From contig JACQRA010000016.1 in the NCBI GenBank assembly GCA_016206725.1, positions 1 to 32,405 on the forward strand: a stretch of 32,405 nt of DNA. The letters are read 5' to 3'. The position numbers were made by a program, and so were the translations under genes. The stretch's first letter is position 1. Every line of letters starts with the position of its first letter. The stretch is from Candidatus Omnitrophota bacterium (GTDB lineage: Bacteria; Omnitrophota; Gorgyraeia; Aquiviventales; Aquiviventaceae). A model generated the notes under the pieces. It was not told the DNA's origin, made no database searches, and saw only the letters and a list, made by a program, of their open reading frames with translations. Positions 877 through 32,405 of the stretch are shown here, piece after piece.

Positions 877-877
877 C

Positions 878-2719: not shown

Positions 2720-2721
2720 CG

Positions 2722-8170: not shown

Positions 8171-8174
8171 CGCG

Positions 8175-15399: not shown

Positions 15400-15407
15400 C
15401 CCCACAC

Positions 15408-17006
15408 CTAGCTGAACGTGACCTTCCCGTCGTTAAAATAGTTGGCAATGTACTGTTCCCGAAGATCGGCGAAGACGGCATTTCCTTCCTCGTCGTCGAT
15501 CTCAGCGCGCCGGATCGTTGGCCACAACGACTCCGGCAGCCTGGCGTAGAGCGAGAAACACCGCGCGATCCCCGTGATTTCTCGGGGCGAATACTGGGGC
15601 ATCTTGAGGATGGACGCGGCGGTGAGCGAGCACGTGACCGCGTTGTCGTCCAGCAGCCCCAAGGTGACCGCCAACGTTCGCAGCGGGGTCCCGTGATAGG
15701 GCATAAACGTGTAGCAGTTCATCGTGTCCACGATGAGTTCGCGATTGAGCCGGATCGTGTCGAAGGCCAGCTCCCTCGTCTCCGTTGGGAAGCCGGTGAT
15801 GTTGTTCACGGAGACGGGGATGTGACGGCCGATCAGGTTCGTCCGCTTGATCAGCTCTTCATTGGCGATCTGCCGGTCCACCACCTCCCGCCGGAACTGC
15901 TCGTTGCCGTGCTCGATGCCCAGCGACACTCGATGGCAGCCGACGCTCTTGAGCATGTCAACCGCCTCCTCGGTAATCGTCTCAGGCCGCGTCTGCATCC
16001 AGAAGGGGAGCCGGACGTTGCGGTACATCTCAATGAAGGCCTTGAACTCCTCGTTCGACCAGGCGAGGAAGGTGTCAGCCGGAAAGTAGACATACTCGGC
16101 CTTCCAGCGTCTGACGAGTTCGACCAGCTCCTCCTGCACTTTGGTAATGGATTTCTTCCGAAAGAACTTGCCGACGCGGTTTTCCTTGTGGAGCCGGTTC
16201 TGCGACGGCGAGTTGCAATAGGTACACGTGAAGGGGCAGCCCCGGTGCGTCTCGATGGGGATCATCCGGTACACCGTGCCCGCCATCGGGCGGTAGATCC
16301 GGTTCTCCTCAAAAATCTCGAAGTCCAAGATCGGCAGGGTGTCGAGCTCAACGAGGGGGCGCTGGGGGTTGACCTTCGCCTTCCCGTCCGGCCCTTTCAC
16401 CCAGAGGTTGTTGACATCGGAGTAATCCAGCCCCATGGCCATTCGCTCGCACAGTTCGACAAGGGCTCCCTCGCCCTCCCCTACGCAGACCATGTCAATC
16501 GCCGACTCCTCAATGGCGATGTGCGGGGCGAAGGTGGCAAACACCCCACCCAGGATGGTCGGGATCTTTCGGTCCTTGATCTGATTGAGGAGGTAGAGAC
16601 CCTGGAAGTAGGTATCTTCCACCGCGGAGACGGCGATCAGGTCCGGCTGGAACGTGTCCACGAGTTGGAGGAAATCATCGACCATGTCGGTCTCTTTGGG
16701 GGTAATCCCGCGCTCCACGAGGTTGAAGGGCCGCACCTGCAAGGTGAGCTCTTTGCGCTTGTCTGAGCTGATCTCAAACCTGCCGATCCCCTGCCCGCCC
16801 AGCTTCGCCATGGCCATCCCGACGTGGTCCCACGGGTAGTAGGTCGTGTCGAATAGGGCGACCTCAATCCCTTTCTGCTTCAGGAGCGCAGAGAAGATCG
16901 CGATGGAAGGCGGCATCATGTTCATCATGTAGAGATTGGGATAGACGAAGAGTACCTTGAAATGCGGCTGCAGCGCCCCACGGAGGATGGACACCGGCTC
17001 GTTCAC
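15408..17006 (-). CDS. B12-binding-domain radical SAM enzyme (class B), copy 1
   Basis: GTG start 17006 sits in a GTGA overlap with the upstream stop. The N-terminal Rossmann-like cobalamin-binding region carries KVLFVYPN and IPTILGGVFATF. The radical SAM cluster motif is ETHRGCPFTCTYC (CX3CX2C). It is a clear paralogue of 27979..29913. Confidence 0.9.
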   Translation of the reverse strand: MNEPVSILRGALQPHFKVLFVYPNLYMMNMMPPSIAIFSALLKQKGIEVALFDTTYYPWDHVGMAMAKLGGQGIGRFEISSDKRKELTLQVRPFNLVERGITPKETDMVDDFLQLVDTFQPDLIAVSAVEDTYFQGLYLLNQIKDRKIPTILGGVFATFAPHIAIEESAIDMVCVGEGEGALVELCERMAMGLDYSDVNNLWVKGPDGKAKVNPQRPLVELDTLPILDFEIFEENRIYRPMAGTVYRMIPIETHRGCPFTCTYCNSPSQNRLHKENRVGKFFRKKSITKVQEELVELVRRWKAEYVYFPADTFLAWSNEEFKAFIEMYRNVRLPFWMQTRPETITEEAVDMLKSVGCHRVSLGIEHGNEQFRREVVDRQIANEELIKRTNLIGRHIPVSVNNITGFPTETRELAFDTIRLNRELIVDTMNCYTFMPYHGTPLRTLAVTLGLLDDNAVTCSLTAASILKMPQYSPREITGIARCFSLYARLPESLWPTIRRAEIDDEEGNAVFADLREQYIANYFNDGKVTFS

Positions 17007-19979: not shown

Positions 19980-19981
19980 CG

Positions 19982-21143: not shown

Positions 21144-22916
21144 TCACACGTGAGAAGCGCTCGGCGGTGGCAGCTCGCTCAGGGTGTCCGACCAACGAGA
21201 CGCCCAGTGACGGTCCACCAGCGCGTAACGCTCCACGAATTGATGACGCGCCTGGCGGACGTCTGTGCGGCGCCACCACGCCTGTGGCTGGTCGCACACG
21301 GTTGCGACGTGGCCGGCCGCAGCCTCCGGCTCATCCCACAAGATCCCCGCCTCACGCAGCGCGTGAAGGTATGGCGCGGCCTCCGCCCGGACCTCCCACC
21401 GCCGTGGATCCCAGAAGAGCACGGTCGGGATATTGGCGGCAAGCGTTTCGAGGAAGACCGTCGCCGAATGATCCACGATGACCAGCCGGGCCTTCGCGAA
21501 CTGTCGATGAATCGGCACCGCCGGCTGCCACCGGACCTCCGGAAACCGTTCACGGATGCCTTCCTCTACGGCATGCCCATAGTCATGGGGATACGGACGA
21601 AAGAGCACCCGGCGTCGCACCCGTTCAGGCAGGGCGTCCAGGAACCGACGCTGCCAACGGAAGTATTCCTCCACTTGACCGCCCACCGGCGTGGACTGAA
21701 ACTGGTAGAGGTACCGGGGATGCGCGGTGGTAACGAACAAGAACGCACCGTCCCGCGCCGCGGGCGCGTGGCGCAGCGTGCGAGTGAGCGCCGAGAGATT
21801 CGGAGACGGCAGATTCCGGCAGATGGGGTGATGATCCCCGGCCCAGCCCCATACTAGAAAGGCGTCCGAGAGGCGAGCCTCGTGTCGTTCGATCGGCGAA
21901 AAGCGATAGAGCCCGTATCCGCCGCCGTGCTGCACCGAAATGAGCCGACCGCCGCCGGCTGACACCTCGGCCGCGAGGAAGCGAAACGGGCTGTTGCTAT
22001 ACCACGTGTTGGTCGCCACGAGGACGGCAGGAACTGCTGGATAGCGACGCCGCACTTCCTCCCTGGCTTGTCGGTAGCCTTCGAGGAAGAGCGTGGGAAG
22101 GTGAAACGGCAGCATCGGCATGACGAGCCGCTCAAAGGGATCTCCACTGGGCAGGCGGGAGAGCCCATTCCGAGCCTCGTCAAACCTCGCGTCGGGGAGC
22201 GCGAATCCCCAATCCCTCGACACCTCCAACGGCATGACGCGGCCGGCCGTCTTCCAGGCCAATGACCAGCTCATCATCCGCGATCGACAGACATCCTGCA
22301 GTCCCACCTTCCACCGACGACGTAGCGCGCGCCGGACCATGTCTTCGCCGCGCCGTATGCCGACACGCCGAGGGCTCTGACACGCGCCATTGACCGCGTC
22401 CTCCGGCGCGGCTCTCCCTCGTGCCGGAAACGCATGCCCCATTCCCGCGAGGAGCTGAGAGAAGAGCTGGAGGTTGGCGAAATCGTCATGGAGCCAGCCA
22501 CGGGCTTGCTCAGGCTCCTGCGGCACACGAAACGACCGGGGATCGAGCACGAGGGTCCGCAGGTTGGGAGCCTGCTGGAAGGCCTCCGTGAGATGGACAT
22601 AACGGTCGTAGGCGGCATGAAGGAAGGACAGCAACCATGACCCAAGGAGCACGCGCCACGACTGCAGCGGATACGCAACGCCATGAACCGCGTTCAGGTA
22701 GTTGGCCAGACGCTCGAGCATCCGTTCACCACAGCCATCCACATAGTCGGCGGCTTCGTAGAAGCGCTCTCGGTCATTCCAGGGCGAGGGCATCACGCGG
22801 AAGCGCAGGTGCGCCCAGTACCTCCGTTGATCCTGGCGAAGGCACCAAGAACCCAGGCACAGGACTTCCTCGCGGGGATCCCAGAAGTCGGTCAATGCCG
22901 TCGTCGCGAGGAACAT
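21144..22916 (-). CDS. Large (590 aa) putative transferase resembling the 'LIC12162 family' found in nonulosonic-acid loci
   Basis: Trimmed to ATG 22916 (1 nt after the upstream TAA). The N-terminus MFLATTALTDFWDPREEVLCLGSWC and the central ISVQHGGGYGL...AFLVWGW match my memory of that family. The C-terminal ARLVIVDHSATVFLETLAANIPTVLFW looks like a GT-B donor-domain helix. The family assignment is from recall and is not searched. Confidence 0.7.
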   Translation of the reverse strand: MFLATTALTDFWDPREEVLCLGSWCLRQDQRRYWAHLRFRVMPSPWNDRERFYEAADYVDGCGERMLERLANYLNAVHGVAYPLQSWRVLLGSWLLSFLHAAYDRYVHLTEAFQQAPNLRTLVLDPRSFRVPQEPEQARGWLHDDFANLQLFSQLLAGMGHAFPARGRAAPEDAVNGACQSPRRVGIRRGEDMVRRALRRRWKVGLQDVCRSRMMSWSLAWKTAGRVMPLEVSRDWGFALPDARFDEARNGLSRLPSGDPFERLVMPMLPFHLPTLFLEGYRQAREEVRRRYPAVPAVLVATNTWYSNSPFRFLAAEVSAGGGRLISVQHGGGYGLYRFSPIERHEARLSDAFLVWGWAGDHHPICRNLPSPNLSALTRTLRHAPAARDGAFLFVTTAHPRYLYQFQSTPVGGQVEEYFRWQRRFLDALPERVRRRVLFRPYPHDYGHAVEEGIRERFPEVRWQPAVPIHRQFAKARLVIVDHSATVFLETLAANIPTVLFWDPRRWEVRAEAAPYLHALREAGILWDEPEAAAGHVATVCDQPQAWWRRTDVRQARHQFVERYALVDRHWASRWSDTLSELPPPSASHV

Positions 22917-22917
22917 C

Positions 22918-24492
22918 TTACCGACGCGCTCTCCCGGCGGCCAATCGTGGCACGACACCCGACCATCCCCCCCGCCACACCATCCATCCCATCGCGCCCC
23001 AGACGGCAACCGCCAAGACGGTTCGTCCCATAAAGACCGTCAGGACCGGCGACGTCCCCTCATAGGAGAAGGGCCCCAGGTGATACACGCCAAAAAGCCC
23101 GCCGGTCACCAGAACGAGTCCTCCCAGCCATCCGTAGAGCGAGAGGCCGCTTCGCCATCCCGTCACGACATAGCGATGGATCAGCAGCAGCAGCGCCACC
23201 GAGAACATCGTCTGCGCGGCAACGCTACACAGGACGATACCGTGCAACCCCCAGCCGGCACGGATCGCCCACGTCGTCAACCCGATGTGGAGCGCAAAAC
23301 CGCTTCCCCACATCGCGGTGACCAGCCGATGCCGGTTGAGCGTCGCCGAGTTCAAGAGATAGACGGGGACGTTCTGAAGCGTCCCCGCGGCCAACAGAAA
23401 CGCGAAGAGTTCAAAGAGGCCGATGGCCGGCTGATAGCGGGGGAGCAGCCAGTGCACGAGGGCGCCACACCACGCCTGGCTCAGGCTGGTCATCGCGCAC
23501 GTCACCAACAAGAGCCAGCAGAGGAGCCGGCGGATCTGAGGACCAAGCACCTGAGGATTCGCGACCCGTTCGAGCTCAGCCCAGAGGCGCGGATAGATGA
23601 CGATGATGAGATTGATCACCATGAGCACGCCTAAGGACACGCACTGCTTCACGAAGGTGAAATAGCCCAGCTCGGTCAGGGGGAGGGCCACCGCGGCCAT
23701 CGCCTGATCCACGGATCGGAAGCCCCAACACAGAAACGTCTGCAGCGACAGGGGCAGTCCGACGGCCAGTAACCGTCGGCATTCCCGGGGATCCCAACGC
23801 CATCGTAGCGCAAGCGTCGGCGCCCATAACCGGAAGCCGAGGAGCGTCGTCAGAGCGATCACCGTCGTTTTCAACAGGGGGCTGTAGATCTTGAGCCACG
23901 CGATCGTGCTCAGCACAAATATCACAGAGCCAAGGCTGCTCAGCACGGTCGTCTTCGCCATCACCGGAAAGCGTTCACGAATAAAGTGAAGGCCGGTGAC
24001 GAAGTCGGCCGCTTGAGAACCGATGAATCCCACCGCGCCAATGAGCAAACCGTGGCGCAGCCAGGGGTGGGATTGCAGGCAGGCGGCTCCCACCATCACG
24101 CCCGCCACCAGCAGCACCCAGATGCCTTCTCCGGTCACGCCGACATGTTGAAGGGCCGTCGCCTCTCGTGATTTTCCCTGCCCCAAGAGGGCAGTGGCCT
24201 CCCGTTGCGCGGCGCTATAGATACCGGTCTTGGCCATCGAGGCATACAGTTGCCAGACGGCGACGAACCCCACGACCCCCAGCCCTTCCGGTCCCAGCAC
24301 ATGAGCTACCAGAAGCCCAAGGGGAAATTGGATCAACGCATTCAGGATCGTGGCGGCAGAGAGCGCGGTCGATCGACGCAGGAAGGCCCGAAACGACAGC
24401 GCGCTTTCCTTCGCCGGGCCCGTCCACGACTCCACGAGCGCCGGAGGCGGCGCGTGGGAGATGTCCGGGAGGATCGCGGCTTCACGGGTCAT
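22918..24492 (-). CDS. MOP-superfamily polysaccharide/oligosaccharide flippase (Wzx-like)
   Basis: Trimmed to ATG 24492 (ATGA overlap). The protein is 524 aa with ~12-14 hydrophobic helices throughout (ATILNALIQFPLGLLVAHVLGPEGLGVVGF...). This is typical of Polysacc_synt/Wzx proteins. Confidence 0.78.
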   Translation of the reverse strand: MTREAAILPDISHAPPPALVESWTGPAKESALSFRAFLRRSTALSAATILNALIQFPLGLLVAHVLGPEGLGVVGFVAVWQLYASMAKTGIYSAAQREATALLGQGKSREATALQHVGVTGEGIWVLLVAGVMVGAACLQSHPWLRHGLLIGAVGFIGSQAADFVTGLHFIRERFPVMAKTTVLSSLGSVIFVLSTIAWLKIYSPLLKTTVIALTTLLGFRLWAPTLALRWRWDPRECRRLLAVGLPLSLQTFLCWGFRSVDQAMAAVALPLTELGYFTFVKQCVSLGVLMVINLIIVIYPRLWAELERVANPQVLGPQIRRLLCWLLLVTCAMTSLSQAWCGALVHWLLPRYQPAIGLFELFAFLLAAGTLQNVPVYLLNSATLNRHRLVTAMWGSGFALHIGLTTWAIRAGWGLHGIVLCSVAAQTMFSVALLLLIHRYVVTGWRSGLSLYGWLGGLVLVTGGLFGVYHLGPFSYEGTSPVLTVFMGRTVLAVAVWGAMGWMVWRGGWSGVVPRLAAGRARR

Positions 24493-25295: not shown

Positions 25296-26362
25296 CAGCC
25301 GCTCATCACCACGGCACCCGTTCGCCGGGCGGGATCCAGCTCAGGATGGTAGTTCCACAGCCGTCCGGTCGCCGTGATCTCGTCGCGAAGACGCCGCGCT
25401 TCGCGCAACACCTCGCCGGCCAACGACCCCCACCGAATCCCCGCGCGCGAGGCCGCCTCGCGGACGGCGGGCGGCAAGGCGCCGGTGGCATGAAAGGCCA
25501 GCGTGTCGCAGAAGAACAGCTCTCCTCCCGCGCCCGACGGGCGGCTCACCTCGGCATGTTCCGCCTGCGCCCGCCCCAGGCAATGCCGGAGAAAATAGTC
25601 GGCATACGCCGACCGGCTCACGTTGACGTACAGTGTGAGCTTGGTCTTCTCCGGCGGCGTCTGGAACATGTGCAGCCCCTGCTCCGCCTCCGTCAGCCGC
25701 CGCCTCTGGCGCACCGACAGGGTGCTGCTATGCCAGAGGAACGAATGAAAGAACACGGCGTCTCCCTGCCGAATCGGCACCCGTTGAGCGTTCCAGAGAA
25801 CCCCCAGCCGCCCGGCGAGCTGCCGGAGGTTCCAGTCCCGGCGCGCATCGCCGGTGCGCAGCGGCAGGCGGTGCGAGCCGGGGACCACGTCGATACCACC
25901 CCCAAACTCCGGATCGTTGTCCTGCAGGTAGAGCCCGCCCTTGAGCACGCGGTACGCCGGCTCCAGGTGGAGCGGACGGAAACCCTCGGAGCAGGCGTCC
26001 TGATGCCACCCCCACCGCCGGGGCAGCGGGATGCCCTTCACGTCCACGCGGTTCGTCCCGAACATGTTCCGTTGGATGTGCAGGTCCGGCATCAGTGTGT
26101 AGGCCGGCTCAAGGATGGCGCGCAGCGTCTCCACGACGGGCTCGCGCAGCAGCCACTCCCACGCGCCCTCCACGTCGGAGGCGAGGGACGTCGGCAGGTA
26201 ACGGACCACCCGCCCCGGCAGCCGCGTGTCGAGACGCTCGAAGGCCGCGAGGATGCGCTCGCGCAGCGCCTGGCACTCTGCCGGGCTGAGGACTCCCCGG
26301 ATGAGTGTGTAACCGTCCCGTTCAAACTGTCGTTGGAGCGCTTCGGTCTGTCCGGCGATCAT
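25295..26362 (-). CDS. Phytanoyl-CoA dioxygenase (PhyH)-family Fe(II)/2-oxoglutarate-dependent oxygenase
   Basis: ATG 26362 (ATGA overlap). The N-terminus LQRQFERDGYTLIRGVLSPAECQALR is PhyH-like. The HxD iron ligands are in GWHQDA, and the distal His lies in VFFHSFLWHSS. Confidence 0.85.
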   Translation of the reverse strand: MIAGQTEALQRQFERDGYTLIRGVLSPAECQALRERILAAFERLDTRLPGRVVRYLPTSLASDVEGAWEWLLREPVVETLRAILEPAYTLMPDLHIQRNMFGTNRVDVKGIPLPRRWGWHQDACSEGFRPLHLEPAYRVLKGGLYLQDNDPEFGGGIDVVPGSHRLPLRTGDARRDWNLRQLAGRLGVLWNAQRVPIRQGDAVFFHSFLWHSSTLSVRQRRRLTEAEQGLHMFQTPPEKTKLTLYVNVSRSAYADYFLRHCLGRAQAEHAEVSRPSGAGGELFFCDTLAFHATGALPPAVREAASRAGIRWGSLAGEVLREARRLRDEITATGRLWNYHPELDPARRTGAVVMSG

Positions 26363-27357
26363 CGGACACGTGCCTCCTCATGGTGTGGCATGGTCTCGAC
26401 ACTCGCTCGGCGCGCCTCCACAGGCTGTGCGATGAGCACCCACAACGCGGCATGCTCGGCGGAAGGGGCGAGGCTCTTGGCGAACCACGGCCGCACCCGC
26501 CTAGCCAAGAGCGGCACGATGAGCCGCTTGAGCAACCCCTTCAGTCGGAGAGATTGCAACGCGCGACCCAACAGCACCAGCCCGTGCAGGATTGGGCGCG
26601 TGCTCATGTCCCATCGGCGAACCGCTCCGACGTGTAGAACCGGTATCGCCCCGTGCAACCGGAAACCCGCCGCGGTGAGCCGTTCTTCCCACTGCGCGCG
26701 ATGGCCGGTGAGTCGCGTCAGCGTGCGAAAGCGGCCGTTGTCAATCCACTCGAAGAACCGGGCACGCCAGTGGCGACCGTTGCGCCGGTATCGTTGGGCG
26801 CGATGATGCGACTGGAGTTGCCCGCCGAAGGTATCGTTCGGCACCACCAGCACGAGTCGACCGTCATCCCGCACAACGCGATGCATCTCGCGCAACCCGG
26901 CCTGCCAATCCGGCAGCCAGTAGAGGATATTGCAGAAGACCGTCGCAAACGAACGATGAGCGAACGGCAGCGCCTGCCCGTCACCCTGCACCAGGGAGCG
27001 ATACGTCGCCGTCCGTCGGGCCTTGTCGAGTAAGCCCGCCTTGTGGTCCAGCCCGACCGTCACGAGCCGTCGGGGGGGTGTGGCCTCGAGGCGCGTCATC
27101 GACGCGGCCGTGTCGTAGAGATCGCCGCGCAGGCGCAGGCGGGTGTCGGTATAGCGGTCATACGAGAGCCGCACCCGCCCTCCCGACGCGATCAGCATGA
27201 AGAGCCCGTCGCCGCAGCCCATATCCAGCGAGGGCTCGCCCATCAGCATCGACGCCAGGACGGACGCCACCGACGCATCCCACACCGCGTCGAAGGGTTT
27301 GAGCCAGTTCGCTTCGAGGAAGCGACGCAGGCAGCGTTCAGCGTCTGCTGACGGCAT
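26359..27357 (-). CDS. Class I SAM-dependent methyltransferase
   Basis: Track ORF trimmed to ATG 27357, giving a 20-nt overlap with the upstream gene end; the start is uncertain. Motif I is SLDMGCGDGLF. Later motifs: FATVFCNILYWLPD and VVRDDGRLVLVVPND. Confidence 0.8.
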   Translation of the reverse strand: MPSADAERCLRRFLEANWLKPFDAVWDASVASVLASMLMGEPSLDMGCGDGLFMLIASGGRVRLSYDRYTDTRLRLRGDLYDTAASMTRLEATPPRRLVTVGLDHKAGLLDKARRTATYRSLVQGDGQALPFAHRSFATVFCNILYWLPDWQAGLREMHRVVRDDGRLVLVVPNDTFGGQLQSHHRAQRYRRNGRHWRARFFEWIDNGRFRTLTRLTGHRAQWEERLTAAGFRLHGAIPVLHVGAVRRWDMSTRPILHGLVLLGRALQSLRLKGLLKRLIVPLLARRVRPWFAKSLAPSAEHAALWVLIAQPVEARRASVETMPHHEEARVR

Positions 27358-27982
27358 GGGTCGCCTGGCGTTTGCGCAGCACCTGTTCGGCCAGCCACAG
27401 ATCGAACGGCTCGTCAATGTCGATATGCTGCTCCCGGTCCAGGAGCACCCGCTCGATCTTCGTGCCGTACCGGTCCCCGGAGCGGATCAGATCCGCCTTC
27501 ATCACGTAGACGTTGCCGTCGTCATAGAAGAAGCCATCGATGTCCTGACGCCGATGCTCCTGGCGATCCTTGGCGTAGGCCGTGTATTTGCAGATGAAGC
27601 CGGTCGCCAACGAGTCCGCTCCCGTGTCGAGAAACCGCTGGATGCAACGGTCAATCAGATCGACATCCCGCACCGGGCACGGCGCCTGGAGGATCACGAC
27701 GACGTCGGCGGGAATGCGCTCCAGCGCGTGTTGCAAGACGCCGAGCATCGGCGCGTCGTCGGTCGCCAACGCCGCCGGGCGGTCGAGCACCTCCGCGCCG
27801 CACTGCCGCGCCACGGCCGCAACCTCCGCGTCTTCGGTTGACACCACGTAGCGGTCGAGGCGTGCCGCGGCCTTCGCCGCCTCAATCGTCCAGGCGAGGA
27901 GCGGTTTGCCACAGAGGGGCCGAATGTTCTTGCGCGCAAGCCCCTTGCTCCCCCCACGCGCCGGTGTGACGCCAAGGATCAT
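27338..27982 (-). CDS. neuA: Acylneuraminate (nonulosonate) cytidylyltransferase, NeuA/CTP_transf_3 family, copy 1
   Basis: Trimmed to ATG 27982 (ATGA overlap with the radical SAM stop). MILGVTPARGGSKGLARKNIRPLCGKPLLAWTI is the canonical CMP-NulO synthetase P-loop. The symbol is used in the family sense only; the actual nonulosonate is unknown. Confidence 0.88.
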   Translation of the reverse strand: MILGVTPARGGSKGLARKNIRPLCGKPLLAWTIEAAKAAARLDRYVVSTEDAEVAAVARQCGAEVLDRPAALATDDAPMLGVLQHALERIPADVVVILQAPCPVRDVDLIDRCIQRFLDTGADSLATGFICKYTAYAKDRQEHRRQDIDGFFYDDGNVYVMKADLIRSGDRYGTKIERVLLDREQHIDIDEPFDLWLAEQVLRKRQATHAVSRR

Positions 27983-29913
27983 CCGCGTTTCTCGCAATCG
28001 GATTGATCCGCCTGGGCGAATTGCGTCGAGATATCCTGCTTGGCGAGTGCTCGCATCATCGTTCGAATCTCATTCAGGCGGGCAGAATCTAAGCGCCCGC
28101 CTTGATTGAATTCGTGGGCACCGGTCAATACCGGCACTCCCGGAGATGCGTCGACAGCCGCGGGTCCTTCCTCCAAAGCGACATCTCTCAGTTGCCACAG
28201 CTGCCAGATGCGCGGCACGAACGCCTCGGCAAATGTGGGATCCGTTTCACAGGCGGCAAGAAATGGACGCATCCACACAGGCAATGCGCCGCGCCGTTGT
28301 TCCAGCTCGTGCGTGGACACCGGCTCCCGGATCGCATCGGCATGACAAGAATCGTCAGGTGTCTGTTGATCCATTGCCTCTCCGAATTTTTTCCAATACA
28401 AGCAGCGAAAGATGATGGAGGTGAGCCGGCTCGAAAGCAGCCTGTCGGTCCCGCACTCATCGATCAGCGGCCAGAGCCATTCCGGGGCCACGACGTAGTA
28501 CGAAAAGAAGTCTCGCAAGCGCACGAGCTCCTTCCTTGTCAGATCCGCCAACTTCAACACCGACCCGACGTTCTTGGTGTAGGTCATAAAATGCTCAGTG
28601 GGTTGAGCCAGCAGGCTCGCTTCGAACTCCGTGTCGAGTAATCCGTTCGATTCGCAGAACGTCCGAATGGGAGTCCCTTTGTACGGGTAGAAAATGCCCA
28701 CCGCCTGGGCTTCTGTCTTCAAGCGCACGTTGAGGCGGATGGTTTCGAAAATATCCGCCCGACGCTCAAAGGGAAGACCGATCATGTTGAACGAGACGCC
28801 TCGAATCCCCTGCTCGCGGAGCAGCTGATAGGCTTGCTCGTAGGCCGCCGTGTCAATGTTCTTATCCAATACACCTCGTCGCAAATCCACATTGCCGGTT
28901 TCCAACCCCAGGCTCGCCGTCGCGCAGCCAAACTGCTTGAGGAGTTTGGCCGTGCGAGGCGTCACCGATGACGAGATCGTCTCAATCGCAAACGGAATGC
29001 CGATCGTCCGGCTGTACTCTGTCGCGAGACGCTCCAAGCGTTCATCGCTCATCAACAAGAACGTTTCATCCCAGAATTTGATGAATTCAATGCCGTAGTG
29101 CCGTGTAAACCACGCAATCTCTTGAATGACACGCGCGACGGATTTCTCGCGATGATAATTGCCTTTACCCTTGTAGATCTGCTGGAGCTCAACGTTGATG
29201 CAATAGGAGCACGTAAAGGGACATCCCCGGCTCATCTCGAAATCGCCATACTTGTAGACGTGCCCATCGAAGGGCTTATAGAAAGCCGAGTCAGGATAGA
29301 TCGTCCAATCCGGATAGGGCAGGGTATCCAAATCTTGCCTCAGCGGGCGTACATGGTTGCGGATCATCTCGCCATTCAGCGTCTTGATCCACAGGTTCTC
29401 GACGGTACTCAGATCTTCTCCGCGATCAACGCGTGCCGCGACCTCCGCTAAGACTTCCTCGCCCTCGCCCAGGCAGACCATGTCAACACAAGGTTCTCGA
29501 AGCACCCCATCGGGGTCCACCGTGGCGTGCACGCCCCCAACGATCGTGGGAATACGGAAGTGCTGACGGACGGATCGGAGCGCTTGCAGCCCAAAGGGGT
29601 AATCATCAGAGAGGACCGACAGCCCGATCATATCCGGACTCGTCTCGTCGATCATCTTGAGTAAGTCGTCGAGCGCCTCTTGGCGGCTCACTCGGCGTCG
29701 AGGCGGGAGCCGTTCAGGGTTGCGCAGCTGCCTGAACTCCAGCGAGACTTCCCCCAAGCCTCGATCGTCCATTCCCCCGCTCAGATCGTACTGCGTGAAG
29801 TCAAACAACCTGAACTCATGCCCAGCCTGTTTCAAGACAGCCGCAAGCGAGGCGATGCCGATGGGCTTGTTCCCTGTCGCCCATTGATTGGGATAGATCA
29901 TCAAGAAGCGCAT
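27979..29913 (-). CDS. B12-binding-domain radical SAM enzyme (class B), copy 2, with ~140-aa extra C-terminal region
   Basis: ATG 29913. Motifs: MRFLMIYPNQ..., IPTIVGGVHATV, VDMVCLGEGEE, and EMSRGCPFTCSYC (CX3CX2C). It aligns by eye along its length with 15408..17006, for example NLWIK/NLWVK and PYKGTPIRT/PYHGTPLRT. The C-terminal tail (from about WKKFGEAMDQQ...) has no counterpart in copy 1. Confidence 0.9.
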   Translation of the reverse strand: MRFLMIYPNQWATGNKPIGIASLAAVLKQAGHEFRLFDFTQYDLSGGMDDRGLGEVSLEFRQLRNPERLPPRRRVSRQEALDDLLKMIDETSPDMIGLSVLSDDYPFGLQALRSVRQHFRIPTIVGGVHATVDPDGVLREPCVDMVCLGEGEEVLAEVAARVDRGEDLSTVENLWIKTLNGEMIRNHVRPLRQDLDTLPYPDWTIYPDSAFYKPFDGHVYKYGDFEMSRGCPFTCSYCINVELQQIYKGKGNYHREKSVARVIQEIAWFTRHYGIEFIKFWDETFLLMSDERLERLATEYSRTIGIPFAIETISSSVTPRTAKLLKQFGCATASLGLETGNVDLRRGVLDKNIDTAAYEQAYQLLREQGIRGVSFNMIGLPFERRADIFETIRLNVRLKTEAQAVGIFYPYKGTPIRTFCESNGLLDTEFEASLLAQPTEHFMTYTKNVGSVLKLADLTRKELVRLRDFFSYYVVAPEWLWPLIDECGTDRLLSSRLTSIIFRCLYWKKFGEAMDQQTPDDSCHADAIREPVSTHELEQRRGALPVWMRPFLAACETDPTFAEAFVPRIWQLWQLRDVALEEGPAAVDASPGVPVLTGAHEFNQGGRLDSARLNEIRTMMRALAKQDISTQFAQADQSDCEKRG

Positions 29914-29924
29914 GTTAGGCCCAT

Positions 29925-29931
29925 TCCTCCC
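29925..29931 (-). promoter_or_regulatory. Possible Shine-Dalgarno (GGGAGGA) for radical SAM copy 2, in the only real intergenic gap
   Basis: Reverse strand reads ...CCGGGAGGAATGGGCCTAACATG. The spacing of 11-12 nt is rather long. Confidence 0.3.
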
Positions 29932-29966
29932 GGATCACGGCGAAGGCCTCGGCGTAACCCCCAGCC

Positions 29967-30797
29967 TCATGACGGGGACACCTCAAGGCGTCGTTCAGGA
30001 ATCTCCGCCTCCTCGAGCGGGAGCGAAATCAGACGTAGGGGCGTCTCCGGCCGGCTGAGGAACCGTCCCACCACCTCCTGCTCGAGATGGCGCAGATACC
30101 GCGCCAATACCTCTTCAGTGAAATCCGCATCGCGGTAGTATCGGCCATTGGTCACCGGCCATTGGGGAACCTGAGGCAGGCGCTGACCTGTCCGGACCAA
30201 ACGCACCTCGCGCCGCAGCGCCTCGGCGCTTGCCGCAATGACGCGGCAGCCCGCCGTGTGGACGGTATCCCCCGCCCTGATGCCGGGGCGCACATGGGCG
30301 ATAATGGGTCCGGTATCAACGCCCTCGTCGAGATGCAGCAGGGTCGCGCCGACATACTCTAACTCACCGTCGACAAACGGCCAGAAATTGGTCCCGCTGC
30401 CTCGGGCGTACGGCGAGAGGCCCAGATGCAGATTCACGGTGCGGCCTGCCGGCAACCGCGAGAGCAAGGAAAGGCGAATCAGGGAGGCGCCGAACACGAC
30501 GCACAGGTCGGGGCGGAAGGCCTCGACGACGCGGCAGGTTGATGGAAGATTGACGTCTCGATAGAGTATCGGGAGGGTGGCGGAGAGGAACGTCTCATGG
30601 CCGGTAAACCACGCCTGTTCCGTCTCTTGTCGAAGCCGGAAGTGAGCCTGCAGGCGCGGGGACAGTCCAGCCCCCCGCCGGTCCTCGTCGCTCGGTTGGC
30701 ATTCGGAGACGACCAGTGTATCGTCGGCGTGCCGCGCGAGCGTGTTCGCCACAAACTTGTGCCGCAGGGCATTGCTGGTCAACACGAGCAACCTCAT
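29967..30797 (-). CDS. Formyltransferase (Formyl_trans_N, Fmt/PurN-like) lacking a tRNA-binding C-domain
   Basis: Track ORF trimmed to ATG 30797 (ATGA overlap), giving MRLLVLTSNALRHKF. The catalytic region is TVNLHLGLSPYARGSGTNFWPF, followed by ATLLHLDEGVDTGPII. Confidence 0.85.
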   Translation of the reverse strand: MRLLVLTSNALRHKFVANTLARHADDTLVVSECQPSDEDRRGAGLSPRLQAHFRLRQETEQAWFTGHETFLSATLPILYRDVNLPSTCRVVEAFRPDLCVVFGASLIRLSLLSRLPAGRTVNLHLGLSPYARGSGTNFWPFVDGELEYVGATLLHLDEGVDTGPIIAHVRPGIRAGDTVHTAGCRVIAASAEALRREVRLVRTGQRLPQVPQWPVTNGRYYRDADFTEEVLARYLRHLEQEVVGRFLSRPETPLRLISLPLEEAEIPERRLEVSPS

Positions 30798-31807
30798 CGT
30801 CGCTCGTGCTCCTGAATCATCTGGGTCAGCTTGGCGTGGATGGTCTCGGCGGTATCCGAGCTGGTCGGGGCGAAACGTCCCAGTTCCAACGGAGAGGACG
30901 TCTTCGTATTGACGACTTCCTGCACGGTGAAGGCCAGCTCGTACTCCCGGGTGCGGCGGAGGAGGGTTTCCCAAGTCAAGCAATCCTGTGGATCGCCAAA
31001 GGGGTAGCTCAAGGCGTTGACCGGCACCTCGAGGGTGCGCTCGAGATACCTCTTGGGCTCAACGACCTCTTCTAGAAACTCCGCCTCGTCGAGATTCGCC
31101 CCGGCGATCGAGACGTGGGAATGCGAATGGACCCCGATGGCGTGCCCAAGCTGCAGGATGTCCTCGACCTGTCTCCGGTCAAGGTGCATCTGCGTGAGGA
31201 TGTCTGGATGGTCGTGCAGCAACGAGCGCCGGTAGATATGCAGGAGGACGCGCCGCGTCTGATGAGGGGGTAACCGGTACGTGAGCGTGCGCTTGAAGGC
31301 GGCGATTGCCATCCACGGATCATCCCGGCCTCGGCGAAACGGGATGTCGTAGTCTCCTGGCGAGAGCCCTTCCTCCTCCAGGGCAGCCCGATAGTGCTGC
31401 AAGAACCGCTCGAGGCCGTAGGCGGCGATGCCGTAGTGCACGATGATCGGATTCGCCGGCAACCGATCTCGCAGGATGCAGGTGGGAATGAAGAAGAACG
31501 CCCGAATGCCGCGCGCGGAGAGCATCCGGGCGGCGTCCACGTGTTCGGCCAATCCGTCATCGAAGGTCAGGAGCACACCGTAGCGGTGAGGTTCCACGCC
31601 TCTCGATCCATAGGCGATCGCCCACGCCTCCTCGGGCGAGAGCAACTCATAGCGCCGCTGAAACAGCGCGAGGTGATCGGACAATTGATCGAGGGACAAC
31701 CCAAGGAGGCGAGGAAACCGATCTTGCGCCTTGGGCGGACGGAGGTAGTGGTAACACAACGCGAGATACCCTGTGGTTGCGCAGGCCCTCCCCGCCGTCA
31801 CGGTCAT
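30794..31807 (-). CDS. CE4/NodB-family polysaccharide (sugar N-/O-) deacetylase
   Basis: The ATG at 31807 overlaps the upstream TGA by 1 nt. Motifs: LLTFDDGLAEH, GVHSHSH, LSYPFG. It carries a long insert between motifs 1 and 2, as does the CE4 domain at 2722..4581. Confidence 0.85.
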   Translation of the reverse strand: MTVTAGRACATTGYLALCYHYLRPPKAQDRFPRLLGLSLDQLSDHLALFQRRYELLSPEEAWAIAYGSRGVEPHRYGVLLTFDDGLAEHVDAARMLSARGIRAFFFIPTCILRDRLPANPIIVHYGIAAYGLERFLQHYRAALEEEGLSPGDYDIPFRRGRDDPWMAIAAFKRTLTYRLPPHQTRRVLLHIYRRSLLHDHPDILTQMHLDRRQVEDILQLGHAIGVHSHSHVSIAGANLDEAEFLEEVVEPKRYLERTLEVPVNALSYPFGDPQDCLTWETLLRRTREYELAFTVQEVVNTKTSSPLELGRFAPTSSDTAETIHAKLTQMIQEHERR

Positions 31808-32151
31808 CAGTAGGCCGTCATGATGTTCACCAAATGCCCCAGTCGATCAATCACCGGAATCAAGAAAATGTGCTGTTGCTCAAAAATGGCCTTGGCCCGG
31901 TCGGCTTCTTCGGCGGTGACCGCGATGAAGTGGGTGTTCATCGCCTGGTGGACCGGCATCGAGAGGACACGGTGATCCAGCACGGCTTTGCGGATATCGC
32001 CGTCGCTGAGCGTGCCGACCACCACGCCGCGCGCATCCACCACCACGACGCTGCGATGGTTGTTCTGCTCGATCAGCGCCATCGCGGTCTCGATCGTGTC
32101 ATTATCGGAGACCGTGTACGGAGACTCAGGAGCTCGACGCGTCCCGCGCAT
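31807..32151 (-). CDS. Stand-alone CBS-pair (Bateman) domain protein
   Basis: The ATG at 32151 overlaps the upstream TAA by 1 nt. The 114-aa protein has two CBS repeats (SVVVVDARGVVVGTLSDGDIRKAV and LIPVIDRLGHLVNIMT) and no catalytic domain attached. Confidence 0.8.
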   Translation of the reverse strand: MRGTRRAPESPYTVSDNDTIETAMALIEQNNHRSVVVVDARGVVVGTLSDGDIRKAVLDHRVLSMPVHQAMNTHFIAVTAEEADRAKAIFEQQHIFLIPVIDRLGHLVNIMTAY

Positions 32152-32405
32152 TAGTAGGCCAAGGCCTTGAAGAGCAGCCGCTCATCAAGGGGAATAGTGG
32201 AGAGTGTTTCAAGAATTCGCTCGCTGGCATGGCCGTCTCCGTACGGATTCTGCAACCCCGACAAGCCGGCGCGAAAGGCGGACGAAAGTGCGCGCTCGAT
32301 GGCGCTCAGGATGGCGCCTTTCTCGTGGCCCACGTTCAAGACATTGCCAGCCTGCATCCGACCCGCCTGCCGACGCCCGATGTTCACCACCGGCAGCTCA
32401 AAGGA
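32151..32405 (-). CDS. neuC: UDP-N-acetylglucosamine 2-epimerase (hydrolysing), NeuC/LegG/PseG-neighbour type; C-terminal 84 aa only, 5' end outside the window
   Basis: The frame is open to the window edge: SFELPVVNIGRRQAGRMQAGNVLNVGHEKGAILSAIERAL...LQNPYGDGHASERILETL. The NIGxRQxGR and NPYGDGxAS motifs are characteristic of the C-terminus of NeuC-type Epimerase_2 enzymes. Confidence 0.8.
   Translation of the reverse strand, partial: SFELPVVNIGRRQAGRMQAGNVLNVGHEKGAILSAIERALSSAFRAGLSGLQNPYGDGHASERILETLSTIPLDERLLFKALAY

What the first reader, a model, noticed from the sequence alone, without database searches (positions are those of the whole stretch)
27338..29913. B12-dependent radical SAM enzyme translationally coupled (ATGA) to a canonical CMP-nonulosonate synthetase
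The 644-aa class B radical SAM (CPFTCSYC plus an N-terminal cobalamin-type Rossmann domain) is the first gene after the only intergenic gap. Its stop overlaps the start of a textbook NeuA-like gene (PARGGSKGLARKN). Class B radical SAMs are known to methylate unactivated carbons of sugars or cytidylylated substrates: GenK and GenD1 act on gentamicin sugars, and Fom3 acts on cytidylyl-hydroxyethylphosphonate. I know of no characterised radical SAM step in sialic, legionaminic or pseudaminic acid pathways. The pairing suggests radical C-methylation (or related chemistry) on a nonulosonate or its CMP ester, which would be a new class of NulO modification. The ~140-aa C-terminal tail has no counterpart in the paralogue at 15408..17006.
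Basis: partly seen in the sequence, partly recalled or inferred. Interest (0 to 1): 0.82.

Follow-up and report, generated by a model that had tools for sequence, protein, structure and literature searches.

The report
Radical SAM enzyme in sialic-acid-like pathway
A B12-type radical SAM enzyme and a compact CMP-sugar synthetase form a conserved gene pair inside bacterial gene clusters that make sialic-acid-like nine-carbon sugars, which points to an undescribed radical tailoring step, most likely a carbon methylation, in the making of these surface sugars.

Summary
On the minus strand, a 644-aa class-B-type radical SAM gene (27979-29913, CPFTCSYC) ends in an ATGA overlap with a 214-aa NeuA-like cytidylyltransferase gene (27338-27982).

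The link to nonulosonic acid (NulO) synthesis is strongly supported:
- Orthologues (44-71% identity; uncultured bacteria, including SAR11 single-cell genomes) mostly sit beside a cytidylyltransferase and near NeuB/NeuC.
- The window itself starts inside a NeuC-like gene, syntenic with a locus carrying NeuB-NeuC-CBS-rSAM-CT.
- In a sister clade the radical SAM domain is fused to NeuB, to NeuB plus the cytidylyltransferase, to NeuC, to an Fe-alcohol dehydrogenase, or to a methyltransferase.
- In reverse, three of three long-contig orthologues of the compact cytidylyltransferase (about 70% identical) sit beside or one gene from large radical SAM genes, NeuB and a LIC12162 transferase.

The chemistry is not established. 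C-methylation is the most likely reading and would fit the recently reported C10 ulosonic acids of unknown origin. An AprD4-like dehydration or another radical reaction is not excluded, and the substrate (free sugar or CMP ester) is open.

The cytidylyltransferase is a compact subfamily, not textbook. No searched paper links radical SAM enzymes to NulO synthesis. Interest 0.72.

The parts
27979..29913 (-). Class-B-architecture radical SAM enzyme, 644 aa (clade A)
   Evidence: ORF. Pfam B12-binding plus Radical_SAM. AF2 model with pLDDT 81; Foldseek top hits are TsrM, MgmA, CysS, OxsB and AprD4. 34-sequence family alignment.
29440..29676 (-). Core of the N-terminal Rossmann, cobalamin-type domain (residues 80-158; GGVH and GEGE motifs)
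   Evidence: PF02310, 64 bits. This region aligns with the cobalamin domain of TokK. G126, G127, H129 and G149-E152 are invariant.
29200..29223 (-). CxxxCxxC [4Fe-4S]/SAM motif, CPFTCSYC (C231, C235, C238)
   Evidence: Translation. Invariant in 34 homologues.
28732..29238 (-). Radical SAM TIM-barrel core (residues 226-394)
   Evidence: PF04055, 74 bits. Best PDB sequence match is AprD4, 6fd2.
27982..28401 (-). C-terminal helical tail (residues about 505-644), specific to the clade
   Evidence: Absent from the paralogue. Present but poorly conserved in all 34 homologues, with a conserved terminal helix (W573, R617, A624). Helical in the AF2 model, with two disordered linkers.
27338..27982 (-). 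Compact NeuA-like CMP-nonulosonate synthetase (short CT), 214 aa
   Evidence: PF02348, 75.7 bits. Best PDB hits are CMP-Neu5Ac synthetases, 6ifd at 4e-24. Motifs PARGGSKG, VSTED, LQAPCP, RRQD and DIDEPFD are present. More than 120 database clusters at 67-79% identity.
27979..27982 (-). ATGA stop/start overlap between the radical SAM and cytidylyltransferase genes
   Evidence: Read directly from the sequence.
29914..29966 (-). 53-bp intergenic gap with a GGAGGA ribosome-binding site 11 nt before the radical SAM ATG
   Evidence: No promoter-like site was found on this strand.
26359..27417 (-). Class I SAM methyltransferase directly downstream; a conserved member of the module
   Evidence: Pfam Methyltransf_11/25. 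26-34% identical over full length to methyltransferases in the homologous modules of L001, L098, L099, L095 and L094.
29967..30983 (-). Formyltransferase directly upstream (probable N-formylation of an amino-NulO)
   Evidence: PF00551 and NCBIfam formyltransferase hits. A deacetylase-plus-formyltransferase arrangement was reported in the Kuenenia Leg-type cluster.
30794..31807 (-). Polysaccharide deacetylase family protein upstream
   Evidence: PF01522. Homologous modules carry a PIG-L deacetylase at the same place.
31807..32151 (-). Stand-alone CBS-domain protein, syntenic with L002 and L003
   Evidence: PF00571. 59-60% identical to the CBS genes between NeuC and the radical SAM gene in L002 and L003.
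32151..32405 (-). 3' end of a NeuC-like hydrolysing UDP-GlcNAc 2-epimerase gene that runs off the window
   Evidence: Translation. 71% identical to the C-terminus of the L002 Epimerase_2 protein, which follows NeuB-SAF there.
21174..22919 (-). LIC12162-family transferase, candidate transferase for the CMP-activated sugar
   Evidence: NCBIfam TIGR04331, 452 bits against a cutoff of 225. 42-52% identical to the LIC12162 genes next to the CT or radical SAM genes in L002, L096 and L099.

Best explanation
The two genes are the core of a conserved tailoring-and-activation module for a sialic-acid-like nine-carbon sugar (nonulosonic acid, NulO).

Proposed pathway:
1. A NeuC-like epimerase and a NeuB-type synthase build the NulO. 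By synteny these genes lie just beyond the high-coordinate end of the window.
2. The deacetylase and the formyltransferase remodel an N-acyl group.
3. The class-B radical SAM enzyme uses its [4Fe-4S] cluster and SAM to generate a 5'-deoxyadenosyl radical, which abstracts a hydrogen from an unactivated carbon of the sugar.
4. The compact NeuA-like enzyme converts the product, with CTP, to the CMP-sugar.
5. The LIC12162-family transferase uses the CMP-sugar in glycan assembly.

My preferred chemistry for step 3 is methylcobalamin-dependent C-methylation. A GenK-like methylation of the terminal carbon would give a ten-carbon backbone.

Shown: gene structure, domains and motifs; conserved pairing with cytidylyltransferase, NeuB and NeuC; domain fusions in the sister clade.

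Inferred: that the enzyme acts on the NulO or its hexosamine precursor (probability about 0.85); that the reaction is C-methylation (about 0.45); the order of steps; use of cobalamin. The confidence given (0.5) is for the explanation as a whole, between those two figures.
For: Domains and fold:
- Class B architecture with an invariant Cys triad.
- The fold matches the cobalamin-dependent enzymes TsrM, MgmA, CysS and OxsB.
- The N-terminal domain aligns with the cobalamin domain of TokK, including the GGxH and GEGE motifs.

Context of orthologues, 44-71% identical:
- A cytidylyltransferase is directly adjacent in about 10 of 16 non-redundant loci: window, L001, L002/3, L014/15, L004, L009, L018, L011, L005, L021.
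- NeuB or a cytidylyltransferase lies within 10 kb in three more: L007, L022, L023.
- Adjacency survives the change from co-directional to divergent orientation.

Synteny:
- The window edge encodes a NeuC fragment 71% identical to that of L002, plus a CBS protein 59% identical.
- In L002 the gene order is NeuB-SAF, NeuC, CBS, rSAM, CT.

Fusions in the sister clade (31-36% identical; within one ingroup in the NJ tree):
- rSAM-NeuB-SAF: P0157 and P0158, on contigs up to 621 kb, in four data sources.
- rSAM-NeuB-CT: P0165.
- rSAM-NeuC: P0268.
- rSAM-FeADH: P0159, on 11 contigs.
- rSAM-methyltransferase: P0210.

Reverse check from the cytidylyltransferase side:
- Three of three long-contig orthologues (70-74% identical) have NeuB-SAF, a PIG-L deacetylase, a 584-702-aa radical SAM gene (adjacent in L096 and L099, one gene away in L098) and a LIC12162 transferase.
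- In L098 and L099 those radical SAM genes give their only NCBIfam hit to the KedN5 family of methylcobalamin-dependent C-methyltransferases (184-199 bits, below the cutoff).

Cytidylyltransferase:
- Its best solved relatives are CMP-Neu5Ac synthetases, and its catalytic motifs are intact.

Literature:
- CMP-activated ulosonic acids with an elongated C10 backbone exist, and no biosynthetic origin is given for them.
Against: - No NeuB gene is inside the window, so its presence rests on synteny.
- Nothing computed here distinguishes methylation from other radical chemistry.
- The best sequence match of the radical SAM core among solved structures is AprD4, a 1,2-diol dehydratase (2e-11 with the single sequence, 9e-17 with the family profile).
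- OxsB is also a non-methylating structural neighbour.
- The window enzyme scores only 61 bits on the KedN5 model, and its highest NCBIfam scores are to BchE and HpnJ, both non-methylases. All are far below their cutoffs.
- The family is common in SAR11 genomes. From my own knowledge, SAR11 is thought to have little or no cobalamin metabolism.
- A class I methyltransferase is already a conserved member of the module.
- One 68%-identical orthologue (L013) has no cytidylyltransferase downstream.
- The cytidylyltransferase family pairs with radical SAM genes only 22-25% identical to this one. The pairing is therefore between families and not strict one-to-one co-evolution.
Confidence: 0.5

Rival explanations
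1. The enzyme acts in the NulO pathway but is not a methylase. It would carry out AprD4-like radical dehydration of a vicinal diol, for example the C7-C9 glycerol side chain of a Neu-type sugar. A dehydrogenase would then reduce the product, giving a deoxy-NulO. Another redox-neutral radical reaction (epimerisation, rearrangement) is also possible.
For: - AprD4 is the best sequence hit in the PDB for the radical SAM core. Foldseek gives a TM-score of 0.70 normalised to AprD4.
- In the sister clade the radical SAM domain is fused to an Fe-dependent alcohol dehydrogenase (P0159 = L054, on 11 contigs). Fe-ADH genes also recur in these modules (L096, L002).
- The NeuB domain of the P0157 fusion passes the Neu5Ac synthase equivalog cutoff (412 against 400 bits). 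The substrate there would therefore carry a triol side chain.
- SAR11 carriage fits a cobalamin-independent enzyme (own knowledge).
Against: - The AprD4 similarity is limited to the barrel. The N-terminal domain aligns with the cobalamin domain of TokK and not with AprD4.
- The NCBIfam AprD4 model scores 46.5 bits against a cutoff of 500.
- The Fe-ADH genes are often paired with an aminotransferase (L096, L002). From my own knowledge this resembles the KdnB/KdnA oxidation-transamination pair of Kdo8N synthesis more than a reductase partner.
- No Fe-ADH gene is present in the window.
Confidence: 0.27
2. The enzyme methylates, or otherwise modifies, an N-acyl substituent and not the sugar backbone. 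Examples would be acetyl to propionyl, or building a branched acyl group stepwise as TokK and CysS do. It might act at the CMP-sugar level, using CMP as a handle as Fom3 does.
For: - The deacetylase and formyltransferase directly upstream show that the N-substituents are being remodelled here.
- The gene is adjacent to, and overlaps, the cytidylyltransferase gene.
- Structural neighbours CysS and TokK are, from my own knowledge, iterative side-chain methylases.
- Several class B radical SAM paralogues often occur per locus (window, L007, L098).
Against: - No direct evidence exists.
- Fusions to NeuC and NeuB suggest action near the free-sugar stage.
- The reported C10 species were assigned to an elongated backbone and not to acyl changes, although in a different organism.
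Confidence: 0.12
3. The radical SAM enzyme modifies a different sugar or a non-sugar component of the large polysaccharide cluster, and its position next to the cytidylyltransferase is incidental operon packing.
For: - The window is one 32-kb glycan cluster with many unrelated tailoring genes and two further radical SAM genes.
- More distant relatives, such as the Scalindua locus L093 and L095, show no NeuB in the 10-kb flanks read.
- The 4-bp overlap is commonplace.
Against: - Adjacency to a cytidylyltransferase or NeuB recurs across phyla and gene orders.
- There are independent fusions to NeuB, NeuC and the cytidylyltransferase.
- The reverse look-ups from the cytidylyltransferase side were positive in three of three cases.
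Confidence: 0.06

Closest known systems
GenK and GenD1 (cobalamin-dependent radical SAM C-methyltransferases of gentamicin aminosugars)
   Same: Class B architecture (cobalamin-type Rossmann domain plus CxxxCxxC barrel) acting on unactivated carbons of amino sugars. GenK extends a hexose side chain by one carbon, which is the logic proposed here for a C10 ulosonic acid. This comparison rests on my own knowledge of GenK.
   Different: No GenK model or structure was available in the libraries, so similarity could not be tested. The pathway (NulO, CMP activation) and the taxa (uncultured environmental bacteria, SAR11) differ. The activity here is only inferred.
Fom3 with the Fom1 cytidylyltransferase domain (fosfomycin)
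   Same: A class B radical SAM methylase whose substrate is made by a neighbouring cytidylyltransferase, so the CMP moiety serves as a handle (own knowledge). Here too the radical SAM gene is paired with a cytidylyltransferase gene.
   Different: The substrate there is a phosphonate, and no PEP mutase or other phosphonate genes are in the window. The PhpK-type family model scores 67 bits against a cutoff of 600. Sister-clade fusions to NeuB and NeuC suggest action on free sugars at least as much as on the CMP ester.
AprD4 (radical SAM 1,2-diol dehydratase of apramycin, PDB 6fd2)
   Same: Best sequence match of the radical SAM core among solved structures (2e-11 with the single sequence, 9e-17 with the profile). 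Structural match with a TM-score of 0.70 normalised to AprD4. It acts on an aminosugar.
   Different: The match covers the barrel only. The N-terminal domain resembles the cobalamin domain of TokK instead. The NCBIfam AprD4 model scores 46.5 against a cutoff of 500. No AprD3-like partner was identified next to the gene.
TsrM, MgmA, CysS, TokK, OxsB (structurally solved cobalamin-dependent radical SAM enzymes)
   Same: Top Foldseek matches (E 2.5e-18 to 3e-16, probability 1.0), with alignments of 480-660 columns.
   Different: Only 13-19% sequence identity and TM-scores of 0.45-0.53 normalised to the query. Their substrates are tryptophan, a protein glutamine, carrier-bound or beta-lactam side chains, and a nucleotide. 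None acts in a NulO pathway.
NeuA, LegF and PseF CMP-nonulosonate synthetases
   Same: PF02348 domain. Best solved relatives are CMP-Neu5Ac synthetases (E 4e-24 to 5e-18). The motifs PARGGSKG..KN, LQxxxP, RRQD and DID..D are present.
   Different: A compact 206-222-aa subfamily with a shortened insertion before RRQD. Below the PseF equivalog cutoff (110 against 205.7). Consistently found with radical SAM genes.
KedN5-family methylcobalamin-dependent radical SAM C-methyltransferases (NCBIfam NF033712)
   Same: The radical SAM genes next to or near 71-74%-identical orthologues of this cytidylyltransferase in L098 and L099 give this family as their only strong hit (184-199 bits). This supports C-methylation as the theme of the module.
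   Different: Those hits are below the cutoff of 700. The window enzyme itself scores only 61 bits and is 22-25% identical to those enzymes.

Membership tests
Radical SAM superfamily | CxxxCxxC motif that binds the [4Fe-4S] cluster, within a partial TIM barrel | tested here: met
   CPFTCSYC at residues 231-238. PF04055 scores 74 bits against a cutoff of 29.5. The motif is invariant in 34 homologues. The barrel is recovered in the AF2 model and matches solved radical SAM enzymes.
Class B (cobalamin-dependent) radical SAM enzymes | N-terminal Rossmann-type cobalamin-binding domain preceding the radical SAM core | tested here: met
   PF02310 scores 64 bits against a cutoff of 32.1. The domain aligns with the TokK cobalamin domain, including GGxH and GEGE. 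Foldseek top hits are TsrM, MgmA, CysS and OxsB.
Class B (cobalamin-dependent) radical SAM enzymes | Actual binding and use of cobalamin | not testable with these tools
   As far as I recall, AprD4 has a related architecture without cobalamin. The sequence alone does not decide this.
Class B radical SAM methyltransferases (GenK, Fom3, TokK, KedN5 type) | Membership of a curated methylase family, or demonstrated methyl transfer | tested here: not met
   NCBIfam scores against cutoffs: KedN5 61/700, PhpK-type 67/600, RiPP C-methyltransferase 64/282, MCR glutamine methylase 37/360. Activity was not tested. This weakens 'is a member of a known methylase family' but not 'works like one'.
BchE, HpnJ and AprD4 (non-methylating relatives, the usual automatic annotations) | Score above the curated equivalog cutoff, and a tetrapyrrole, hopanoid or aminoglycoside gene context | tested here: not met
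   Scores against cutoffs: BchE 100/481, HpnJ 94/578, AprD4 46.5/500. The context is a glycan/NulO cluster in every locus read.
TIGR04295 'B12_rSAM_oligo' family | Score above the curated cutoff | tested here: not met
   64 bits against a cutoff of 400.
CMP-nonulosonate synthetase (NeuA, LegF, PseF) | CTP_transf_3 fold with the CTP-binding P-loop motif and the sugar- and Mg-binding motifs | tested here: met
   PF02348 scores 75.7 bits against a cutoff of 22.6. The motifs PARGGSKGLARKN, LQAPCP, RRQD and DIDEPFD align with CMP-Neu5Ac synthetase 6ifd.
CMP-nonulosonate synthetase (NeuA, LegF, PseF) | Equivalog-level identity with a characterised enzyme | tested here: not met
   PseF TIGR03584 scores 110 bits against a cutoff of 205.7, and no other NulO cytidylyltransferase model passes. 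The protein belongs to a distinct compact subfamily.
CMP-nonulosonate synthetase (NeuA, LegF, PseF) | Co-occurrence with a NeuB-type NulO synthase | tested here: inconclusive
   No NeuB gene lies in the 32-kb window. However, the window ends inside a NeuC-like gene syntenic with L002, where NeuB is the next gene. NeuB is also present near orthologues in L001, L002, L014, L035, L054, L068, L096, L098 and L099.

The most novel reading that the evidence does not exclude
Class-B radical SAM enzymes of this clade and its sister clades are the missing enzymes that extend or branch the carbon skeleton of nonulosonic acids. They would produce the CMP-activated C10 'higher-carbon' ulosonic acids recently detected by mass spectrometry. 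[quoted passage not shown] If so, radical C-C bond formation would be a widespread and so far unrecognised layer of cell-surface sugar diversification, with the compact cytidylyltransferase as the dedicated activator of the modified sugars.
Probability: 0.3. Interest if true: 0.85.

Novelty: new variant of a known kind. Interest (0 to 1): 0.72.

Why it matters
Nonulosonic acids cap bacterial flagella, capsules, LPS and S-layers, and they shape recognition by phages and immune systems. Every characterised tailoring step uses polar chemistry such as acyl, amidino, methyl-ester or methyl-ether transfer. A radical SAM step would be a new type of modification for this sugar class.

The conserved pairing and the fusions to NeuB, NeuC and NeuA give a well-defined, testable enzyme family: about 2,500 relatives at E <= 1e-30 in a 50%-clustered library. 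Public databases currently annotate its members as BchE-like cyclases or as generic radical SAM proteins.

The family also offers a concrete candidate for the unexplained C10 ulosonic acids. Its presence in SAR11 genomes raises a question about cobalamin use in organisms thought to make little use of it.

Tried and rejected
I therefore could not test whether Magnetospirillum gryphiswaldense, the organism with the reported C10 ulosonic acids, carries a homologue.
- The exact look-up of the window protein found no public contig, so the source organism stays unknown. The listing of cluster members gave no taxon names.
- The promoter and terminator scan around the gap showed nothing above the shuffled expectation on the coding strand.
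- The ten literature searches found no paper linking radical SAM enzymes to NulO synthesis. The Leptospira paper found was irrelevant, and the 'NeuB' search was swamped by matches to unrelated words.
- Foldseek and the PDB sequence searches did not separate methylases from non-methylases.
- I first read the rSAM-FeADH fusion as an AprD4/AprD3-type dehydratase-reductase pair. I then noted that Fe-ADH plus aminotransferase pairs in these loci resemble KdnB/KdnA (own knowledge), so the fusion is ambiguous.
- I rejected the BchE, HpnJ, RiPP and phosphonate readings on scores and context.
- I rejected the idea that the ATGA overlap is itself meaningful.

Full report
OBSERVATION

All long ORFs of the 32.4-kb, 63.6% GC window lie on the minus strand and form one tightly packed glycan cluster.

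The radical SAM gene:
- It occupies 27979..29913 and encodes 644 aa. Its N-terminus, MRFLMIYPNQ, coincides with that of 33 homologues.
- Pfam finds a B12-binding domain at residues 80-158 (64 bits) and a Radical_SAM domain at residues 226-394 (74 bits).
- The Cys triad CPFTCSYC lies at 29200-29223.

The downstream gene:
- It starts at the ATG at 27982 and ends at 27338, giving 214 aa that begin MILGVTPARGGSKGLARKN. It carries a CTP_transf_3 domain (75.7 bits).
- The minus strand reads ...cgc gGA TGA tcc..., so its start overlaps the radical SAM stop by 4 bp.

- With maximal ORFs, the 53-bp gap upstream of the radical SAM gene (29914-29966) is the only junction wider than 4 bp. It contains a GGAGGA 11 nt before the ATG.
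- The paralogue at 15408..17006 is 34% identical, and that alignment stops at residue 490 of the query. The tail therefore has no counterpart there.
The overlap itself is unremarkable: three -4 junctions occur in this window, and the overlap is not conserved in homologues.

WHAT THE TWO PROTEINS ARE

The radical SAM protein:
- No curated family is reached. The best NCBIfam scores against their cutoffs are BchE 100/481, HpnJ 94/578, KedN5 61/700, AprD4 46.5/500 and TIGR04295 64/400.
- By sequence, the nearest solved structures are AprD4 (barrel only), then TokK (cobalamin domain plus barrel), CysS and MgmA.
- An AlphaFold2 model built on 34 homologues has pLDDT 81 and pTM 0.82.
- Foldseek places that model with TsrM, MgmA, CysS, OxsB and AprD4 at E 1e-18 to 1e-15.
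- This establishes the class B architecture. It says nothing decisive about the chemistry.
- The tail of about 140 aa is present in all clade members. It is poorly conserved except for a terminal helix (W573, R617, A624), and the model shows it as helical with two disordered linkers.

The cytidylyltransferase:
- Its best solved relatives are CMP-Neu5Ac synthetases (6ifd at 4e-24, 1eyr at 5e-18). KdsB enzymes score about 1e-3.
- All catalytic motifs are present: PARGGSKG..KN, LQAPCP, RRQD and DIDEPFD.
- It is a compact form with a shortened insertion before RRQD, and it scores below the PseF equivalog cutoff (110 against 205.7).
- It belongs to a very conserved subfamily: more than 120 database clusters at 67-79% identity, each 206-222 aa, including Nitrospira and Omnitrophica MAGs.

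SURROUNDINGS IN THE WINDOW

In transcription order the genes are:
- the 3' end of a NeuC-like hydrolysing 2-epimerase gene that runs off the window (32151-32405);
- a CBS protein, a polysaccharide deacetylase and a formyltransferase;
- the radical SAM gene and the cytidylyltransferase gene;
- a class I methyltransferase, a PhyH dioxygenase, a second methyltransferase and a Wzx flippase;
- a LIC12162-family transferase (TIGR04331, 452 bits against a cutoff of 225);
- a SPASM radical SAM gene and a second, divergent cytidylyltransferase;
- an SDR, an acetyltransferase and an epimerase;
- a second class B radical SAM gene and a HAD hydrolase;
- then further transferases and tailoring enzymes.

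No NeuB gene is in the window. The NeuC fragment is 71% identical, and the CBS protein 59% identical, to genes in locus L002. There the order is DegT, NeuB-SAF, NeuC, CBS, rSAM, CT. NeuB is therefore expected just beyond the window edge.

RELATED SEQUENCES

About 80 database clusters are 44-71% identical to the window radical SAM protein, and most are near 620 aa. They include SAR11 single-cell genomes and an Acidimicrobiia MAG.

I screened ORFs of 95 fetched loci with my own HMMs for cytidylyltransferase, NeuB and NeuC. Combined with the Pfam tables, the result for orthologues is:
- A cytidylyltransferase is directly adjacent in about 10 of 16 non-redundant loci.
- It is co-directional in the close relatives L001, L002/3 and L014/15.
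- It is divergently transcribed in SAR11-type loci (L004, L005, L009, L011, L018) and convergent in L021.
- NeuB or a cytidylyltransferase lies within 10 kb in L007, L022 and L023.
- Nothing was seen in L013, where a GFO/IDH/MocA oxidoreductase, DegT and a methyltransferase follow instead, nor in the short contig L025.

In a larger sister clade (about 490-530 aa, 31-39% identical), the order CT-rSAM-NeuB(-NeuC) is contiguous in L034/L094, L035, L040/41 and L054. In L068 the cytidylyltransferase sits directly upstream of an rSAM-NeuB fusion. The radical SAM gene is directly adjacent to NeuB in L038, L039 and L071.

In the L054/L068 subclade of this group, the radical SAM domain is fused to pathway enzymes:
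- rSAM-NeuB-SAF (P0157 and P0158, 875 aa, on contigs up to 621 kb, in four data sources);
- rSAM-NeuB-CT (P0165, 1097 aa);
- rSAM-NeuC (P0268);
- rSAM-FeADH (P0159, on 11 contigs);
- rSAM-class I methyltransferase (P0210).

The NeuB part of P0157 passes the Neu5Ac synthase equivalog cutoff (412 against 400 bits).

An NJ tree places the window clade, the fusion clade and a third NulO-linked clade in a single ingroup, set apart from the other class B radical SAM genes found in the same loci. The third clade also contains the window paralogue.

THE REVERSE CHECK

I chose three orthologues of the cytidylyltransferase only for contig length or for carrying a name: L096 (Nitrospira), L098 and L099, at 70-74% identity.
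- All three show NeuB-SAF, a PIG-L deacetylase, a 584-702-aa radical SAM gene and a LIC12162 transferase. The radical SAM gene is adjacent to the cytidylyltransferase in L096 and L099 and one gene away in L098.
- Those radical SAM genes are only 22-25% identical to the window enzyme.
- In L098 and L099 their only strong NCBIfam hit is the KedN5 family of methylcobalamin-dependent C-methyltransferases (184-199 bits, below the cutoff).
- Conversely, the cytidylyltransferase next to SAR11-type orthologues is only 23-27% identical to the window cytidylyltransferase.

The pairing is therefore between families and survives replacement of either partner. That argues for a functional link and against inheritance of a fixed block.

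The methyltransferase downstream of the cytidylyltransferase and the LIC12162 transferase are also conserved members of the module.

MECHANISM

Shown: the domain architecture, the invariant cluster motif, intact cytidylyltransferase motifs, and conserved association and fusion with NeuC, NeuB and NeuA-type enzymes.

Inferred: the radical SAM enzyme abstracts a hydrogen from an unactivated carbon of the NulO or of its hexosamine precursor, and the compact cytidylyltransferase activates the tailored sugar for the LIC12162 transferase.

I favour methylcobalamin-dependent C-methylation (about 0.45) for four reasons:
- Most characterised class B enzymes are methylases (own knowledge).
- The N-terminal domain aligns with the cobalamin domain of TokK.
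- The partner radical SAM genes in L098 and L099 are KedN5-like.
- A 2026 preprint and an earlier survey report CMP-activated ulosonic acids with an elongated C10 backbone and give no biosynthetic origin for them. Terminal C-methylation, as GenK does on a hexose (own knowledge), would produce exactly such sugars.

The main rival (about 0.27) is AprD4-like dehydration or another non-methylating radical reaction:
- It is supported by the AprD4 match in the barrel, by the Fe-ADH fusion, and by carriage in SAR11.
- SAR11 is thought to make little use of cobalamin (own knowledge).

On the substrate stage:
- The fusions to NeuC and NeuB suggest action near the free-sugar stage.
- The overlap with the cytidylyltransferase gene is equally compatible with action just before or just after CMP activation.
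- The same preprint shows that deacetylation and formylation act at the CMP-NulO level in a Kuenenia cluster with an arrangement similar to the deacetylase and formyltransferase here.

COMPARISON AND NOVELTY

The enzyme is a class B radical SAM protein by architecture but a member of no curated family. The cytidylyltransferase is NeuA-like but belongs to a distinct compact subfamily.

The ten full-text searches found no paper that connects radical SAM enzymes with nonulosonic, sialic, legionaminic or pseudaminic acid biosynthesis. The library does not cover subscription journals. Source annotations of homologues are 'BchE-like cyclase', 'YgiQ' or a generic radical SAM name.

I rate this a new variant of a known kind: a known enzyme superfamily recruited to a pathway where radical chemistry has not been described. 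The finding is widespread, with 2,556 relatives at E <= 1e-30 in a 50%-clustered library. Interest 0.72.

Noticed in passing
window 19194-21139 (-): A SPASM/twitch radical SAM gene (19982-21139) lies directly upstream of a second, divergent CTP_transf_3 gene (19194-20006, 270 aa, LLGREGSVGFPGKN, 29% identical to the first cytidylyltransferase). Both cytidylyltransferases in the window therefore follow a radical SAM gene. SPASM radical SAM plus cytidylyltransferase adjacency recurs in L065, L075 and L014.
   Followed up: partly
window 14743-17006 (-): A second class B radical SAM gene (532 aa) is followed by a HAD hydrolase. In the NJ tree it groups with a clade that is also next to NeuB or a cytidylyltransferase in other loci (L034, L035, L039, L050, L071), so it may be a second NulO-tailoring enzyme.
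   Followed up: partly
L068 8923-11550; L054 10001-12688; proteins P0157, P0158, P0159, P0165, P0210, P0268: Natural fusions of the sister-clade radical SAM domain with NeuB-SAF, NeuB plus cytidylyltransferase, NeuC, an Fe-alcohol dehydrogenase and a class I methyltransferase. These would be ready-made constructs for biochemistry.
   Followed up: yes
window 28001-30000 and 16001-17000: The GC content of the radical SAM gene is about 57%, against 64-68% in the flanking genes. The second class B radical SAM gene also dips, to 59%. This may reflect an amino-acid composition constraint or acquisition from a lower-GC donor.
   Followed up: no
window 29967-31807 (-): The deacetylase plus formyltransferase directly upstream of the pair mirrors the arrangement reported for the Leg-type cluster of Ca. 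Kuenenia stuttgartiensis. That organism makes CMP-NulOs with a free or formylated amine.
   Followed up: partly
window 21174-22919 (-) and 12838-14742 (-): The first is a LIC12162-family transferase (TIGR04331, above its cutoff). The second is a 634-aa protein with a weak hit to the TIGR04326 'surface carbohydrate biosynthesis' family (62 bits against a cutoff of 250). The installed Pfam copy finds nothing in either.
   Followed up: partly
L004, L005, L009-L012, L018, L031: Orthologues are common in SAR11/Pelagibacter genomes and marine metagenomes. There they are always divergent from a 205-210-aa cytidylyltransferase that lacks the RRQD motif and is followed by a 300-aa NAD-dependent epimerase/dehydratase. 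A B12-type enzyme in SAR11 is unexpected (own knowledge).
   Followed up: partly
L096 13162-15559; L002 4011-7459: Fe-ADH genes sit next to aminotransferase genes within the NulO modules. From my own knowledge this resembles the KdnB/KdnA oxidation-transamination pair that makes Kdo8N, and it suggests amination of a terminal carbon of the ulosonic acid.
   Followed up: no
L098 and L099, downstream of the module: A conserved trio of an HMGL-like protein (about 550 aa), a long HAD hydrolase (534 aa) and a ferredoxin/LdpA-like Fe-S protein follows the NulO module. Its role is unknown.
   Followed up: no
window 1-880 (-) and 878-8281 (-): A multi-pass membrane protein runs off the low-coordinate end. 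Upstream of it lie a GT1-DUF218 fusion, a deacetylase-methyltransferase fusion, a NodU-like carbamoyltransferase and an AsnB-type amidotransferase. Carbamoyltransferases also recur next to the module in L002, L003, L007, L095 and L096.
   Followed up: no
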